IMG/VR virus record: IMGVR_UViG_3300020180_000017
Coordinates: 1 to 64,000 of that record
DNA length: 64,000 bases
Strand: one strand, 5' to 3'
Origin: a virus
Shown here: positions 40,686-49,990 of the stretch, one piece after another
Layout of the letters: each line of letters begins with the position of its first letter
How positions within the stretch are numbered: the stretch's first letter is position 1
Notes under the pieces: model-generated
Databases searched by the model: none
What the model was told of the DNA's origin: nothing
What the model saw: only the letters and a program-made list of their open reading frames with translations
Position numbers and translations under genes: made by a program

Positions 40686-40704
40686 TTTATTTATTTAAGA
40701 TTAG

Positions 40705-40775
40705 TAGAGCTATTAGGATTCGAACCTAAACTAATCGCTTAGAAGGCGATTTTGCATCCATTACAACATAGCTCT
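40705..40775 (-). tRNA. trnR: tRNA-Arg (anticodon UCU), CCA not encoded
   Basis: Acceptor stem AGAGCTA/TAGCTCT; anticodon arm ATCGC-CTTCTAA-GCGAT; T arm TTAGG-TTCGAAT-CCTAA. Confidence 0.93.
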
Positions 40776-41599: not shown

Positions 41600-42829
41600 T
41601 TAAAAACAAACATTAAAAAAAGTTAGGAGTTCTTCTTTTTGTAAATTAGAAATATTAATATTTTTGTTCTTATTTAGAAATATCATCCATTCAGATACTA
41701 CTTTATTTACTTTCCAACTTTCAAAGTAATTTACAATAGTATTTTTAAATTGCTCTAAGTCAAGTTCTACTGCTTCTAACTCATTATACTCTAACCATTT
41801 AAATATTCTATTTTTAAATCTTTCACATCCTTTATACCCGTCATCTTTCCATTTTCCACCTTCAAAATAATGATTAATAAACATCAAATACATTCTTAAT
41901 GTTTGAGGATCGTAATCTATGGGGTTTACTGTATTATTAAGTGACTTACTCATTTTATTACCATCCTCTCCTAATATCATCCCTTGATGTATTACTTTAA
42001 GGAATGGTTCATCAAAATCTATGTAACCTATATCAAATAAAAATTTAGTTATAAACCTAGCATATATGAGATGCATACAAGCATGTTCATTTCCTCCAAC
42101 ATACAAGTCAACAGGTCTGTTTTTATCATATTCAATAGTATAAAAAGAACTATCAACAAATGTATCTAAAGTATCTTCTTCTCCATTTACAGGTATTGAA
42201 CACCCCCATTTTCTTTGCCTACTTACACACCAATCAGTTAAGTTATGTAGCCAATGTATTTGTTGTTTTTTAGTTTTTTCTGGGTAATCTACTTTGTCAA
42301 GGTCATTAATCAATCTTTCTTTGTAATCTGTAATTTTAAAAAACCACTGATTTAATTCTTTTTTAATTACTTCAGTATTGCATCTTTCACATTTTTTATC
42401 TTTTACTTGTTCTTTAGCTAAAACAGTTTCACATGAAATGCAATAATCTTGTTCTCTATTAGCCTTATAAGCTAATCCATGATCTAATAGTTTATTGAAT
42501 AACCACTGAGTTCTTTCTTGATATTCTTTAGAATGTGTTGAAAGTTTATATTCAAAAGAAGTATTCATTCTTTCCATTTCTTTTGAAAAAGCCACTATAT
42601 TTTCTTCAGTTATTTCTTTTGGATCTCTATTTACTTTTTTAGCGTAATTTTCTGTTGGAAGACCAAAAGCGTCAAAACCAAAAGGTTGAAATATTTCATA
42701 GCCTAAATACTTTTGTATTTTACAATAACTATCTACAATAGAATAATTATAGTAATGTCCTACGTGAAGATTTGCTCCACTTGGGTAAGGAAACATTACA
42801 GTTACATACTTATTTTCTTTTTTTATCAT
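41600..42829 (-). CDS. leuS: Minimal leucyl-tRNA synthetase-like protein (409 aa; catalytic core only)
   Basis: MFPYPSGANLHVGH (HIGH), GFDAFGLP, CxxC..CxxC knuckle, QWFFKIT, DWCVSRQRKWG, DTLDTFVDSSFY, PVDLYVGGNEHACMHLIYARF, EPF, GNKMSKS. Confidence 0.92.
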   Translation of the reverse strand: MIKKENKYVTVMFPYPSGANLHVGHYYNYSIVDSYCKIQKYLGYEIFQPFGFDAFGLPTENYAKKVNRDPKEITEENIVAFSKEMERMNTSFEYKLSTHSKEYQERTQWLFNKLLDHGLAYKANREQDYCISCETVLAKEQVKDKKCERCNTEVIKKELNQWFFKITDYKERLINDLDKVDYPEKTKKQQIHWLHNLTDWCVSRQRKWGCSIPVNGEEDTLDTFVDSSFYTIEYDKNRPVDLYVGGNEHACMHLIYARFITKFLFDIGYIDFDEPFLKVIHQGMILGEDGNKMSKSLNNTVNPIDYDPQTLRMYLMFINHYFEGGKWKDDGYKGCERFKNRIFKWLEYNELEAVELDLEQFKNTIVNYFESWKVNKVVSEWMIFLNKNKNINISNLQKEELLTFFNVCF

Positions 42830-42859
42830 AATTTATTTTGTTGTTTACATAACTCCGTT

Positions 42860-43147
42860 TATCCCTGCAAGTGTTTTCACTTTGGGTTAAAGATTATTAG
42901 AGTAATAACATAATCTTTAAGTTAACCTATAAACTCCCACACCCCTGTTTCGACTTTATTAATTCTTGGGAATTAAGTCTGTGTTTTATGTGGAGGAATA
43001 CGCTTTTTCCCAAGAATTACTTGCAGGGCATTGTTGTGACGGTAACACAGAGCAACTATTTTACGTATCCTATACCAGTAAGGCCAAGTTTCCACTCCTT
43101 ACTGAGTTTATAATAACTATCTTTTATTGACTCTAGGACTAAAAGAT
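42860..43147 (-). ncRNA. Candidate multi-stem structured RNA upstream of the LeuRS-like gene
   Basis: Nested inverted repeats ccctgcaagt/acttgcaggg, aattcttggga/tcccaagaatt, ttaaagatta/taatctttaa; hairpins cagtaagg/ccttactg and atctttta/taaaagat; GC-richer than the flanks, no good ORF. Confidence 0.6.
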
Positions 43148-43162
43148 GGAAAAAACCCGAAT

Positions 43163-43193
43163 AAAAAAAACCCCTTGTATTTCTACAAAGGGC
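43163..43193 (-). terminator. Intrinsic terminator/attenuator within the leader region
   Basis: GCCCTTTGTA-GAAA-TACAAGGGG followed by T8. Confidence 0.75.
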
Positions 43194-43311
43194 TAATTTA
43201 GACAGGAGATTGAGAATACAGTTGTTACACTGTAAAGATATGAAATTTATTTTAATTACTAATTATATTTTTGCACTAACTCCTGTCTAAGAAGCATTTT
43301 GCTTTACATAA

Positions 43312-43343
43312 CAAATGTATACTTTTAATTAATATCCACCAAA
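43312..43343 (-). promoter_or_regulatory. Bacteroidota housekeeping-sigma promoter
   Basis: TTTG (43343-43340), 20-nt spacer, TACATTTG (43319-43312); matches TTTG-N19-21-TAnnTTTG. Confidence 0.65.
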
Positions 43344-43455
43344 TTTATTTGTATTATTTTACTACTTAATAATTCCTCCTAAAGTTGTAGTAATCCATAA
43401 AGGAAGGTGAGTTGAGCTTAATGTTATAGTGTATTTCATACTGCAAATATACAAC

Positions 43456-43487
43456 AAAAGAGGGGCCAGTATAGAAATACTACCCCT
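43456..43487 (-). terminator. Terminator-like hairpin after the tail gene block
   Basis: GGGGTAGTAT-TTCT-ATACTGGCCCC followed by TCTTTTGTT. Confidence 0.55.
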
Positions 43488-43509
43488 GAAAAACAAAACA
43501 AAACAAATT

Positions 43510-44673
43510 TTAAGGATAATTTATGTAAAAACTCTTAATATCCGACTTAGGTACGCCAACACAAGGATAAGATTCTACCCTAATAGTATGATAACCTTTA
43601 TTTAAATTTAATAGAGAGACACTTGCAGCCACTTGAGGTTGTGCAGGTGACGTAATCAAGATATTATCTAAATACACTCTAAATGTAGTTTCTACACTTG
43701 TCCACGAAGTTGTTGCAACGTCATTAACTATTACTGGTGTATTAACTACTATAGAAGAGCATCCAGAAGTTACTGAAAGAGACGTAGTTGTAGAGCCAAA
43801 AGTTACAGAAGCTACTGACCCACCATTGTTACAATAAGCTTGTATTTTAAGCCAGTAAGGTGTTGATGGGGATAATTCTGAGAATGTAGCAAAAGGTACA
43901 ACAAGGTTAGCTTGAGTTGATCCTGGAACTAGTACAGTTAATCCTGCATCAGTGTAGAGAGAAACAGTCCAAGTAGTGTTATTACTACCAGAAACCCAAG
44001 TATAAAATAATGAAGTAGATGTAATACCTATTGCAGTTACACCTGTTATTTCACTGCAATTAGATAAAGAAGCTACACAATTTAATACAGATGTGCAAAA
44101 TCCAGGAAGAGCAACTAAGTAGTTTAAAGCACATTGCCAGTCTATTGTTGCTTGTATTTTTTCGTTAAAACCTGTATTTACTTTTGAAAAAGTAATGCAT
44201 TGAGTGCTTAACAATTTATCAAATAAATAGCTTGTAGTTGTATCTGTTGCAGATATTTTAACTTTTTCATCAGGTGGAGTTGATACAGCTCCAGTTGCAG
44301 TCACTTGTACTTTTTCAATTCCTGAAACTGTTATAGGACTTAATAAAATACCAGTACCAGCAGTTAACATTGTTGAAAGATACTCTGGTGTTGCATCAGA
44401 ATTGTCTCTAAGTACTTTTCCTTTATAAATGTTATAATCACATTTCCAAGATTCTAATTTTCCAACAAGATCATACAGAGTTTCATTTGTTTCAAAATCA
44501 AGACAAGTAAAAACTATATTAGTGCCATTTACACTTTTTTCTTTTAACTGTATACAGCCAAATGGAAGTTCATTGTCACATCCCATTATAGAATAGTCAG
44601 GAAGATTACAAGTGCATAGATTATCACATTGATCACATCCACATTTATTGCAAGGATTTGTATTAACACACAT
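43510..44673 (-). CDS. Cys-rich tail fibre/appendage protein with a fibronectin type III-like domain
   Basis: Cys-rich N-terminus; ITSTSLFYTW..LSPSTPYWLKIQAYC FN3 signature. Confidence 0.65.
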   Translation of the reverse strand: MCVNTNPCNKCGCDQCDNLCTCNLPDYSIMGCDNELPFGCIQLKEKSVNGTNIVFTCLDFETNETLYDLVGKLESWKCDYNIYKGKVLRDNSDATPEYLSTMLTAGTGILLSPITVSGIEKVQVTATGAVSTPPDEKVKISATDTTTSYLFDKLLSTQCITFSKVNTGFNEKIQATIDWQCALNYLVALPGFCTSVLNCVASLSNCSEITGVTAIGITSTSLFYTWVSGSNNTTWTVSLYTDAGLTVLVPGSTQANLVVPFATFSELSPSTPYWLKIQAYCNNGGSVASVTFGSTTTSLSVTSGCSSIVVNTPVIVNDVATTSWTSVETTFRVYLDNILITSPAQPQVAASVSLLNLNKGYHTIRVESYPCVGVPKSDIKSFYINYP

Positions 44674-47815: not shown

Positions 47816-49990
47816 TTACCAATTGATTACGCCCTCTCTTTTATTCAAAACAATATTTGTTGAGGAAATTGCTTTAGCAAACATTTTTTCAAATGTACCA
47901 GAAGCTGCATCAGTTTCTTTAAAAATTACCAAAGGTTCGAATATTCTTGGTTGCTCTGCGAAAGTATTTACACCAGCTCTGCTTTCAACAAATTTAGTAT
48001 AATACACTTTATAAAAAGCATTTCTATCCACTTGTGAAAGAACTTCTTGACCCAGTGCTTCTCTAAATCTAGGGTTAACGTTCCAAGAACTTGCCCAATG
48101 GTATGCACTCCACTCAATCAACTTACGAATAACCCACTCACCACTTTGCCTACGATACAGTTGCTCTTCTACATTTTTAATAACAGGCAGAGAACCTAAC
48201 TTACAAGTATCAGGATAATTAAGCTCCCAAATAGCTTCCAAATGAGGTGGTTCATTTTCATAAAAATCTTGTGGATCAAAAGAACAATCTCCAAAAACTG
48301 TTTCAGGTACTTCAGCCTGAATAGTAAAACCACATTTTCTAGTTGGGTTAACAGATACAACTTCAGGAACAACAGTCCAAACTTGACCGTCAAATGAACC
48401 AAGATTTGTGTAATCACCAGAATCAGTAGCCAAACAATCATCGGTAAGACAACCATTAGACCATTGTTCTATTGTATATGTATCTTCGCAACCCACTGAA
48501 CCACTTAATTTAAGAATAGTTCCAGATACTACATTAGGTGTAGTAGCATAAAAAGCAGTTAATTCAGATAATCTATCTGCATCATTACAGTCAGTACGTT
48601 GAAGAGTAACTTTTAATTTACGCTTAGTTTTATAAGCTGTTCCACAAACTGTCCATGCAATTGCTGTAGCAGCAACGCTGGGAGAACAACTTGCTTCAAT
48701 CTTAACACCTACTATTACTGTATCAGACAGTAGAGCTACAACAACTGTACCTGTGGGTACTTCAAAACTAACTGAAGCAGTAGCACCACTCTGAGAGTTA
48801 AATCTAGCGTTAATTGGACTGTAAGCAGTGTATGCAGTAGCAATTGTACCAGCATAAGTTGCTTGAGCACCAATAGTAGATAAATTAGTAGAAGGAGTAA
48901 TCGGACGAACAATTGTAATTGTATCCATTGCTGCTACAGCAGTGTATCCAGTAGGGCACACACCACATATAGATAGTAATACATCTTGTGTCGGAGTGAA
49001 ATTACCAGCAGCTACATCACCACAATAAGTATATTGAGATTTACAATCAGCTCTACCAGTACGGGTTACCACACCTGCTACACCTGCATTTGTTTGAATT
49101 GCTTGCAATGCAGGAGTATCTCCATTATCACAAACTTCCAAACAATATTTATTCCTTCTATTAGAGGGAGCAGAAAATGTTGCAATAGGAGCACTTGAAT
49201 AACCACTACCTCCAGCAGTTATTGTAACAGCAGTAATAACGCCGTTAACAACTGTAGTTGTACCAGTAGCACCAGTTCCATCACCTGTAAAAGTAACAGT
49301 ACCAGAGGTATAACCAGTTCCACCATTTACTATAGTCACACTGGATACAGCAGTACCTGTAACTACAGCAGTACCAGTAGCTTGAACTGAAGGAGCACTA
49401 TAAAGATTAGAAACAAAACGAGCTTTTACGCCAACTTGTTTCAGCTCTATTTCATCGTTGATTAATTTAACAATAGCTTTTGTGTGTAGTTCACAGTCCA
49501 AAGTAGTATCTGGACAAGTGGCACAATCTTCTCCACAACAACCAGTGTTGTAAGAAATAATCTTTTCAAGAGGTTTACCAAAGTACCTAAGTATTGGAGA
49601 ACCCTTCAAATAAATTTTAAGAACGTAATTTTTATCGCATTCATACTTAATTCCAAGAGAATCACTTGCACCTGAATAGCCAATAGATAGTTTATTTGAA
49701 CGTGTAATCTTTTGAGCATTACTCACTTCAAAATTAACTACATCCTTCACTTTAAAGAAGGTGCTTTTTTCTGAATCTTTCAAACCAGAAACGTCTCCGA
49801 TAGAATCATATTTGCGAGTAGATCCCATAGCAAAGAAAATTTCTTCTCTAGGGCTGGGTGAGCTAACTACGCTATAATTATTTCTACTGTAAAGACCAAG
49901 TTGGCCTGGGGCAATGTCATTGACATGGCCTGATGTTGCAATTCCTGAATTAACTACAAACACAGGAAAATTGTACTCTTGATTATGCAT
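47816..49990 (-). CDS. Abundant structural protein (724 aa), auxiliary capsid-like, with an inserted Gly/Thr-rich beta repeat
   Basis: Follows MCP and ring genes and ends at a terminator; tandem VTIVNGGTGYT / VTITAGGSGYS repeats. Confidence 0.6.
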   Translation of the reverse strand: MHNQEYNFPVFVVNSGIATSGHVNDIAPGQLGLYSRNNYSVVSSPSPREEIFFAMGSTRKYDSIGDVSGLKDSEKSTFFKVKDVVNFEVSNAQKITRSNKLSIGYSGASDSLGIKYECDKNYVLKIYLKGSPILRYFGKPLEKIISYNTGCCGEDCATCPDTTLDCELHTKAIVKLINDEIELKQVGVKARFVSNLYSAPSVQATGTAVVTGTAVSSVTIVNGGTGYTSGTVTFTGDGTGATGTTTVVNGVITAVTITAGGSGYSSAPIATFSAPSNRRNKYCLEVCDNGDTPALQAIQTNAGVAGVVTRTGRADCKSQYTYCGDVAAGNFTPTQDVLLSICGVCPTGYTAVAAMDTITIVRPITPSTNLSTIGAQATYAGTIATAYTAYSPINARFNSQSGATASVSFEVPTGTVVVALLSDTVIVGVKIEASCSPSVAATAIAWTVCGTAYKTKRKLKVTLQRTDCNDADRLSELTAFYATTPNVVSGTILKLSGSVGCEDTYTIEQWSNGCLTDDCLATDSGDYTNLGSFDGQVWTVVPEVVSVNPTRKCGFTIQAEVPETVFGDCSFDPQDFYENEPPHLEAIWELNYPDTCKLGSLPVIKNVEEQLYRRQSGEWVIRKLIEWSAYHWASSWNVNPRFREALGQEVLSQVDRNAFYKVYYTKFVESRAGVNTFAEQPRIFEPLVIFKETDAASGTFEKMFAKAISSTNIVLNKREGVINW

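What the first reader, a model, noticed from the sequence alone, without database searches (positions are those of the whole stretch)
42860..43147. Large, probably pseudoknotted RNA directly upstream of the mini-LeuRS
Seen: a 10-bp helix (42863-42872/43019-43028) encloses an 11-bp or longer helix (42961-42971/43008-43018) and another long hairpin. On the minus strand, the large loop carries CUCCACA and GACUU, complementary to downstream UGUGGGAG and AAGUC. Two further hairpins lie 5' of this. It does not match T-box, hammerhead or group I cores that I can recognise. Inference: a novel ncRNA, either a cis-regulator or an RNA partner or substrate of the truncated synthetase.
Basis: partly seen in the sequence, partly recalled or inferred. 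Interest (0 to 1): 0.7.

Follow-up and report, generated by a model that had tools for sequence, protein, structure and literature searches.

The report
Orphan structured RNA leader before phage mini-LeuRS
A roughly 300-base non-coding stretch in front of a phage's shortened leucyl-tRNA synthetase gene can fold into a stable structure and has hardly changed in a related phage, so it is probably a functional RNA, but it belongs to no known family and is not a regular companion of this enzyme.

Summary
The described helices are real. Three perfect inverted repeats (10, 13 and 11 bp) nest within 170 nt, two hairpins lie 5' of them, and the loop complementarities exist. The fold beats shuffles (z about -3.4), but equally on both strands, and it is not the most stable stretch of the window. 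The minimum-energy fold replaces the 13-bp helix with a nested alternative, so the pseudoknot is optional.

The best evidence for function is comparative. A contig from a second metagenome, about 96.5% identical, has 4 differences in 331 nt of this block. Synonymous sites of the adjacent LeuRS gene differ at 0.145 per site. One change turns A-U into G-U on the minus strand. Two others hit the two opposed positions that close the 11-bp hairpin.

No Rfam family, tRNA or tmRNA matches. Neither sequence nor covariance-model searches find the element in about 100 other mini-LeuRS loci or 19 whole phage records. The closest relatives have a protein gene directly upstream. More distant ones often have tRNA-Leu genes there.

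Verdict: probably a lineage-specific structured RNA that acts as the 5' leader of the LeuRS operon. The partner or substrate idea is unsupported. With two sequences, covariation cannot be tested. Interest is moderate.

The parts
42830..43160 (-). Whole conserved non-coding block between the terminator's U-tract and the LeuRS start codon.
   Evidence: 4 differences in 331 nt in the contig of run X2, against 0.145 per synonymous site in the adjacent gene. No open frame spans it. G+C is 0.36-0.38 against about 0.28 beside it.
43119..43147 (-). 5' hairpin 1: AUCUUUUA/UAAAAGAU with a 13-nt loop.
   Evidence: Present in the folds. The X2 change at 43134 lies in its loop.
43076..43104 (-). 5' hairpin 2: 8 bp (43104-43097/43083-43076) plus 3 inner pairs, with a GGAA loop.
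   Evidence: Present in the folds. No X2 difference is listed here.
43019..43028 (-). Outer helix, 5' strand (CCCUGCAAGU). It pairs with 42863-42872.
   Evidence: Perfect 10-bp inverted repeat. Pair probability 0.84-1.0.
42863..42872 (-). Outer helix, 3' strand (ACUUGCAGGG).
43007..43018 (-). Inner helix, 5' strand (AAUUCUUGGGAA). It pairs with 42961-42972. Alternatively UUCUUGGG pairs with CCCAA..GAA at 42886-42876.
   Evidence: Perfect 13-bp repeat counting 43019/42960. Pair probability is only 0.2 because of the competing fold.
42961..42972 (-). Inner helix, 3' strand (UUCCCAAGAAUU).
42988..42995 (-). CUCCACAU in the 34-nt loop. It pairs with GUGU-G-GGAG at 42934-42942, either as a pseudoknot or nested in the minimum-energy fold.
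   Evidence: Duplex energy -9.6 kcal/mol and pair probability 0.2-0.74. The X2 change at 42991 turns A-U into G-U on the minus strand.
42934..42942 (-). 3' partner of the CUCCACAU segment.
42975..42979 (-). GACUU, complementary to AAGUC at 42952-42956.
   Evidence: duplex energy -5.4 kcal/mol. With the full inner helix formed, the 4-nt linker makes this pairing strained (inference).
42887..42920 (-). 11-bp perfect hairpin with a 12-nt loop.
   Evidence: Pair probability 0.59-1.0. X2 changes both loop-closing positions, 42909 and 42898: G.A becomes U.U on the minus strand.
42830..42862 (-). A-rich stretch with little predicted structure between the structure and the AUG. It contains a GGAG followed by the minimal frame AUG-UAA.
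41600..42829 (-). Mini-LeuRS gene, 409 aa.
   Evidence: Pfam tRNA-synt_1, E 4.9e-38. The best solved relative is 3ziu, a 637-aa leucyl-tRNA synthetase, aligned over its residues 35-520.
43163..43194 (-). Intrinsic terminator that bounds the block upstream.
   Evidence: 11 pairs, followed by a T-run. The X2 change at 43170 turns G.U into G-C on the minus strand.

Best explanation
The block 43160-42830 on the minus strand is a functional, lineage-specific structured RNA that forms the 5' leader of the transcript carrying the mini-LeuRS gene.

It consists of two 5' hairpins and a core of about 170 nt closed by a 10-bp helix. The core is a three-way junction. Its centre can adopt either of two nearly isoenergetic forms:
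- a 12-13-bp helix stacked on the closing helix, giving a duplex of about 22 bp;
- a nested fold in which CUCCACAU pairs with GUGUGGGAG.

It most likely acts in cis on the LeuRS message. It would control stability, processing or access to the A-rich initiation region 33 nt downstream, perhaps through a bound protein or a double-strand-specific nuclease.

Shown: the helices, the non-coding status, the position, and the low divergence and its pattern.
Inferred: transcription of this strand, the cis role and the mechanism.
For: Position:
- It lies in the largest non-coding gap of a tightly packed window: 680 nt, against 320 nt for the next largest gap left by the ORFs of at least 90 aa, part of which may be short coding sequence.
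- All long genes are on the minus strand.
- A minus-strand terminator ends just upstream, and none lies between the block and the AUG.
- No frame spans the block.

Conservation:
- A 1359-nt contig of run X2 covers 41968-43308 with 47 substitutions and 5 gaps.
- 30 of the listed differences fall in the LeuRS gene: 23 synonymous over 158 synonymous sites (0.145) and 7 non-synonymous (0.010).
- Only 4 fall in the 331-nt block (0.012). Fisher p is 8e-9 against synonymous sites.
- The 148 nt upstream of the block carry 6 listed substitutions and 4 indels.

Pattern of the 4 changes:
- 42991 gives A-U to G-U on the minus strand. On the plus strand it would be an A.C mismatch.
- 42909 and 42898 are the two opposed bases closing the 11-bp hairpin. 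The chance of such a coincidence is about 1e-3 by a rough count.
- 43134 lies in a loop.
- None breaks a predicted helix.

Fold: z is -3.45, and G+C is locally raised.
Against: - Only two sequences exist, so there is no covariation test.
- No RNA data exist.
- Both strands fold equally well.
- The three main helices contain no G-U pairs, so a DNA-level palindrome would look the same.
- The stretch is not among the 15 most stable of 1275 windows.
- Divergence between the two phages is patchy. A 382-nt tract inside the gene (42222-42603) has only 3 differences. A recombination tract could therefore mimic constraint.
- 7 of the contig's 47 substitutions were not listed. I infer that they lie beyond 43210. 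If all lay in the block, the contrast with the upstream flank would vanish (p 0.79), though not the contrast with synonymous sites (p 1.4e-5).
- No promoter of the Bacteroidota type, even with one mismatch in the second element, lies between the terminator and the AUG (the consensus is recalled).
- The element is absent from every other mini-LeuRS locus searched.
Confidence: 0.4

Rival explanations
1. It is a free-standing stable non-coding RNA gene. It would be co-transcribed with, or processed from, the translation-related module (RNA, mini-LeuRS, tRNA-Arg) and would act in trans, as the stable RNAs in the T4 tRNA region are thought to do (recalled).
For: The conservation and structure evidence is the same as above. 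The block sits in a module with a synthetase and a tRNA-Arg gene at 40704-40775. Near-uniform conservation over about 330 nt is more typical of a folded RNA with tertiary contacts than of a simple leader.
Against: No terminator or recognisable processing signal separates it from the LeuRS start 33 nt downstream. No own promoter was recognised. There is no second copy or relative anywhere.
Confidence: 0.2
2. There is no RNA-level function. The inverted repeats arose by chance or act at the DNA level (promoter or operator, recombination or replication signals). The low divergence reflects a recent recombination tract shared by the two phages.
For: - Both strands fold equally well.
- The helices are perfect Watson-Crick pairs.
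- Inverted repeats of 10 bp are common in this AT-rich DNA: 46 in 64 kb against about 35 in shuffles.
- Other windows fold as well or better.
- A tract of equally low divergence exists inside the LeuRS gene.
- The promoter for the LeuRS operon must lie somewhere in this block, unless the terminator is read through.
Against: - Three mutually compatible repeats nest within 170 nt. By my arithmetic, about 0.12 are expected per 170 nt.
- The A-to-G change keeps a pair only in minus-strand RNA.
- The two loop-closing bases changed together.
- The block is flanked on both sides by high divergence. Within 42604-42829, 6 of the 10 differences are synonymous. Upstream there are 6 or more substitutions plus 4 indels in 148 nt.
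- The GC skew does not switch here.
Confidence: 0.3
3. It is a tRNA-Leu mimic bound or charged by the mini-LeuRS, either as an autoregulatory operator or as a substrate.
For: It is adjacent to the synthetase gene. In 4 of 14 related viral loci scanned, tRNA-Leu genes occupy the same position directly upstream of the mini-LeuRS (L006, L008, L011, L013).
Against: - ARAGORN finds no tRNA, intron-bearing tRNA or tmRNA, even at relaxed thresholds.
- The Rfam tRNA model gives nothing at E up to 10.
- No CCA follows any helix.
- The element is absent from all other mini-LeuRS loci.
- The 7 closest loci with upstream sequence have gaps of only 2-180 nt before the gene.
Confidence: 0.06

Closest known systems
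T-box leader RNAs of aminoacyl-tRNA synthetase genes (Rfam RF00230)
   Same: A long structured 5' leader directly upstream of a synthetase gene, with alternative pairings in its core.
   Different: There is no match to the T-box model at E up to 10. No terminator or sequestering helix lies next to the start codon. I recognised no specifier-loop or T-box sequence. T-boxes are typical of Firmicutes (recalled), whereas this phage's genes lack Shine-Dalgarno sites.
E. coli thrS operator and pheST leader (synthetase autoregulation or attenuation; recalled, not read here)
   Same: Control of a synthetase gene's expression by its own leader RNA.
   Different: No tRNA-like arm was recognised. A 12-codon frame with three Leu codons lies upstream in the neighbouring unit. 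Masking it does not open the terminator in silico.
RNase III processing hairpins in phage T7 and lambda leaders (recalled)
   Same: A phage intergenic structure at the start of a transcription unit. The coaxial 10 + 12-13 bp duplex is about two helical turns, the size such enzymes cut.
   Different: Those sites are single irregular hairpins of about 60 nt. Here about 330 nt are conserved, loops included. Cleavage was not tested.
Stable RNAs of the T4 tRNA region, and large orphan structured RNAs of phages such as GOLLD and ROOL (recalled; the latter are in Rfam)
   Same: A phage-borne structured RNA of unknown function near tRNA and translation genes.
   Different: No Rfam family matches at the gathering thresholds or at E up to 10. 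Those families are widespread. This element is known from only two near-identical phages.

Membership tests
Any Rfam 15 family | Covariance-model score at or above the family's gathering threshold. | tested here: not met
   the only match in the window is tRNA at 40705-40775; at E up to 10 over 42700-43600 there are only noise hits, at most 24 bits against thresholds of 39-80, and none covers the core.
T-box leader | Stem I with a specifier loop, a conserved T-box sequence, and a terminator/antiterminator or start-site sequestering helix. | tested here: not met
   The T-box model gives no hit at E up to 10. There is no terminator between the structure and the AUG.
tRNA, tmRNA or tRNA-like | Cloverleaf with D and T arms and an acceptor stem; for tmRNA, a tag reading frame. 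| tested here: not met
   ARAGORN at default and at relaxed thresholds, with introns allowed, finds nothing in 42700-43600. The Rfam tRNA model gives no hit at E up to 10.
Group I intron | P3-P9 core with P4-P6 and P7/P3/P8 domains, and insertion in a host gene. | tested here: not met
   The Rfam intron model gives no hit at E up to 10. Only 34 nt lie between the arms that would be P3, too few for P4-P6. It lies in intergenic DNA.
Conserved leader or partner of the phage mini-LeuRS family | Co-occurrence with mini-LeuRS genes in other genomes. | tested here: not met
   - blastn and nhmmer: 0 credible hits in 101 loci (best E 0.023, a 48-nt match at 75% identity lying downstream of the gene).
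- blastn: nothing below E 0.025 in 19 whole records.
- Model R1: 0 of 19 other records (one hit of 16.8 bits at E 0.38) and 0 of 81 loci.
Some of the loci are the same contig held in two collections.
Functional structured RNA (general) | Compensatory base changes in homologs. | tested here: inconclusive
   Only one diverged copy is available. It shows one A-U to G-U change, one joint change of a loop-closing pair, and no helix-breaking change among 4 differences.

The most novel reading that the evidence does not exclude
The block is the founding member of a new class of large structured phage RNA that senses the leucine charging state. It would do so through uncharged tRNA-Leu, leucine, or the mini-LeuRS protein itself. 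It would then switch between its two nearly isoenergetic core folds to set expression of the phage's own minimal synthetase. This would be a functional analogue of T-box control in a host group that lacks T-boxes and Shine-Dalgarno-led initiation.
Probability: 0.1. Interest if true: 0.75.

Novelty: new variant of a known kind. Interest (0 to 1): 0.4.

Why it matters
How phages control the translation genes they carry is largely unknown, and no leader-RNA control of synthetase genes is described for hosts of this type, as far as my three literature searches show. A conserved 330-nt structured leader in front of a minimal LeuRS would give a concrete object for studying that control, and possibly a new RNA fold. 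At present it is an orphan known from two near-identical phages, so its wider importance is unproven.

Tried and rejected
Homolog searches that found nothing:
- blastn of the 371-nt stretch against 50,697 phage records gave one 28-nt hit on the terminator only.
- Exact-pattern scans of viral contigs gave 3 chance hits in coding DNA and then 0 hits twice.
- An exact-pattern scan of genome contigs gave 0 hits.
- A search for relatives of the upstream tail-fibre-like gene found none.
- A search with the terminase found one 6.3-kb contig, without the element.
- There is no second copy in the phage's own 72.5-kb record.

Other ideas tested and dropped:
- Decayed-gene idea: 18 proteins encoded upstream of the closest mini-LeuRS genes give no match in 42830-43509.
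- Upstream gaps of 10 other mini-LeuRS loci show no shared architecture.
- Leader-peptide attenuation in the neighbouring unit: masking the Leu codons leaves the terminator intact.
- Origin of replication: the GC skew does not switch here.

Expression: no RNA holder is listed among the sequencing runs. Parts of the stretch without cover in run X2 (43368-43887) say nothing.

A genome-contig search with the LeuRS returned mostly cellular full-length enzymes and gave no hint about the host.

Literature: three searches returned nothing on a phage LeuRS leader RNA (listings only). Of PMC9437257 I read only the passages on LeuRS duplicates.

Full report
**Setting.** The window is part of a 72.5-kb virus record estimated at 52% complete. 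It is AT-rich (25-37% G+C), and all long genes are on the minus strand. The genes include a terminase and a portal protein. The genes have A-rich upstream regions without Shine-Dalgarno sites. From recalled knowledge, this suggests a Bacteroidota-like host.

The gene at 41600-42829 (minus strand) encodes a 409-aa class I synthetase (Pfam tRNA-synt_1, E 4.9e-38). Its best solved relative is the 637-aa leucyl-tRNA synthetase 3ziu, aligned over that protein's residues 35-520. By recollection 3ziu is the Mycoplasma mobile enzyme that lacks the editing domain. 'Mini-LeuRS' is therefore a fair name.

Upstream of the gene lies a 680-nt gap, 42830-43509. It is the largest in the window; the next largest gap left by the ORFs of at least 90 aa is 320 nt, part of which may be short coding sequence.

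**The observation.** The three helices are perfect inverted repeats of 10, 13 and 11 bp. The two 5' hairpins and the loop complementarities CUCCACA/UGUGGGAG (one bulge) and GACUU/AAGUC are present on the minus strand.
- The 5' strand of the outer and inner helices is one continuous 22-nt segment. The core is therefore a three-way junction with two coaxial helices.
- The fold is better than shuffles (z -3.45, 0 of 100 as good), but the plus strand does as well (z -3.36).
- In a scan of 1275 windows of 300 nt the stretch is not among the 15 most stable.
- Perfect repeats of 10 bp or more are common: 46 in the window against 34.9 +/- 4.9 in shuffles. Three compatible ones within 170 nt are unusual. 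By my arithmetic about 0.12 are expected per 170 nt, which gives roughly 0.1 after allowing for all positions in the window.
- The minimum-energy fold (-48.1 kcal/mol) does not use the 13-bp helix. It pairs UUCUUGGG with CCCAA..GAA further 3', and it forms both 'pseudoknot' pairings as nested helices. The best fold that keeps the three perfect helices is -46.4 kcal/mol.

The element thus has two nearly isoenergetic core folds, and a pseudoknot is not required.

**Is it known?** No.
- Rfam gives only the tRNA-Arg at the gathering thresholds, and only noise at E up to 10.
- ARAGORN finds nothing, even at relaxed thresholds or with introns allowed.
- No reading frame spans the block.

**Is it functional?** The decisive data come from public reads. 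Besides the probable source sample, one run from a different habitat holds a relative. A 1359-nt contig of that run covers 41968-43308 with 47 substitutions and 5 gaps.
- Of the 40 listed substitutions, 30 lie in the LeuRS gene. 23 are synonymous (0.145 per synonymous site) and 7 are non-synonymous (0.010).
- 4 lie in the 331-nt block 42830-43160 (0.012).
- 6 substitutions, plus 4 indels, lie in the 148 nt upstream of the block.
- The block is thus as constrained as amino-acid-changing sites (Fisher p 8e-9 against synonymous sites).

The four changes are informative:
- 42991 changes A-U to G-U in the CUCCACAU/GUGUGGGAG helix, but only if the minus strand is read as RNA.
- 42909 and 42898 are the two opposed bases that close the 11-bp hairpin (G.A becomes U.U).
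- 43134 lies in a hairpin loop.
- No predicted helix is broken.
- The upstream terminator also gains a G-C pair from a G.U pair on the minus strand (43170).

Caveats:
- Seven substitutions of this contig were not listed. Because the table is ordered by place and stops at 43210, I infer that they lie beyond that point. If all lay in the block, the contrast with synonymous sites would remain (p 1.4e-5), but the contrast with the upstream flank would not.
- Divergence is patchy. A 382-nt tract inside the gene has only 3 differences. A shared recombination tract is therefore a live alternative.
- No RNA run holds the sequence, so nothing can be said about expression.

**Is it tied to the mini-LeuRS?** No. 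I collected:
- 17 viral loci and one phage record;
- 80 metagenome loci;
- one further mini-LeuRS contig from a genome bin.

Some of these are the same contig held in two collections. Results:
- blastn and nhmmer find nothing credible in 101 loci.
- blastn finds nothing below E 0.025 in 19 whole records.
- A covariance model of the 176-nt core finds only its own source among 20 records and nothing in 81 loci.
- The seven closest loci that include upstream sequence (67-74% identity) have gaps of 2-180 nt before the gene. Five of them have a protein gene ending 2-47 nt before it. These upstream proteins are unrelated to each other and to this window's gap.
- In 4 of 14 more distant viral loci, tRNA-Leu genes sit directly upstream.

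The gene therefore moves between contexts, and this RNA is peculiar to one lineage.

**Mechanism.** A strong terminator (43194-43169) ends just before the block. Nothing terminator-like follows the block before the AUG. The structure ends 33 nt before the start codon, in an A-rich tract. I therefore favour a cis-acting 5' leader of the LeuRS operon. It would affect stability, processing or initiation, possibly through the 22-bp stacked duplex or through the switch between the two folds.
- A separate stable RNA is the second choice.
- A DNA-level or neutral explanation is third.
- A tRNA-Leu mimic is unsupported.
- No host-type promoter is visible inside the block (the consensus is recalled), so the transcription start is unknown.

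**Comparison and novelty.** The element resembles T-box and other synthetase leaders in position only, and it fails their defining tests. It is best called an orphan candidate RNA family: a new variant of the known kind 'structured leader of a translation gene'. Three literature searches gave no description of such an element (listings only). Interest is moderate. The conservation signal is real but rests on one comparison.

Noticed in passing
window 43162-43343 (minus strand): A second candidate RNA unit lies upstream of the block. It has a promoter-like TTTG-N20-TACATTTG (43343-43312), an 11-bp long-range helix (43290-43280/43208-43198) and the terminator 43194-43169. The 147-nt stretch folds with z -5.2 against mononucleotide shuffles. 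It holds a 12-codon frame (MLLRQELVQKYN). It is much less conserved in run X2 than the block studied.
   Followed up: partly
L006 2902-2985, L008 2617-2698, L011 2779-2853, L013 2813-2985: In 4 of 14 related viral loci scanned, tRNA-Leu genes lie directly upstream of the mini-LeuRS gene. Two more loci (L012, L014) have tRNA-Leu genes 1.3-2.1 kb upstream. This suggests a recurrent synthetase and tRNA-Leu module in large phages.
   Followed up: partly
L014 2722-2780: A tRNA-like sequence with acceptor, D and T arms but seemingly no anticodon arm lies upstream of a mini-LeuRS gene. ARAGORN did not call it.
   Followed up: no
L001 5537-5610, L008 2188-2260, L010 4586-4664: ARAGORN reports tRNAs with 4-nt or 2-nt anticodons (gtag, acat, aa) in phage tRNA arrays near mini-LeuRS genes.
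   Followed up: no
L015-L017 and L085-L090: Some mini-LeuRS relatives are about 526 aa long and match the query in a 1557-1596-nt span. They seem to carry an insertion of about 110 aa relative to the 409-aa form.
   Followed up: no
window 43362-43439 (minus strand): A 25-codon frame encodes a hydrophobic peptide (MKYTITLSSTHLPLWITTTLGGIIK). It lies between the first terminator-like hairpin (43486-43460) and the promoter-like site.
   Followed up: no
window 49001-49500: This is the most stable predicted RNA folding in the window (-95 kcal/mol per 300 nt; 3.3 sd below the G+C trend). It lies inside the 724-aa structural gene, in a locally G+C-rich stretch.
   Followed up: no
L118 5253-5375 (record positions 69253-69375), plus strand: A weak, 90-nt tRNA-Ile(tat) call (Rfam 29.6 bits against a threshold of 29) lies on the strand opposite to all genes. 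No tRNA-Leu was found in the 72.5-kb record.
   Followed up: no
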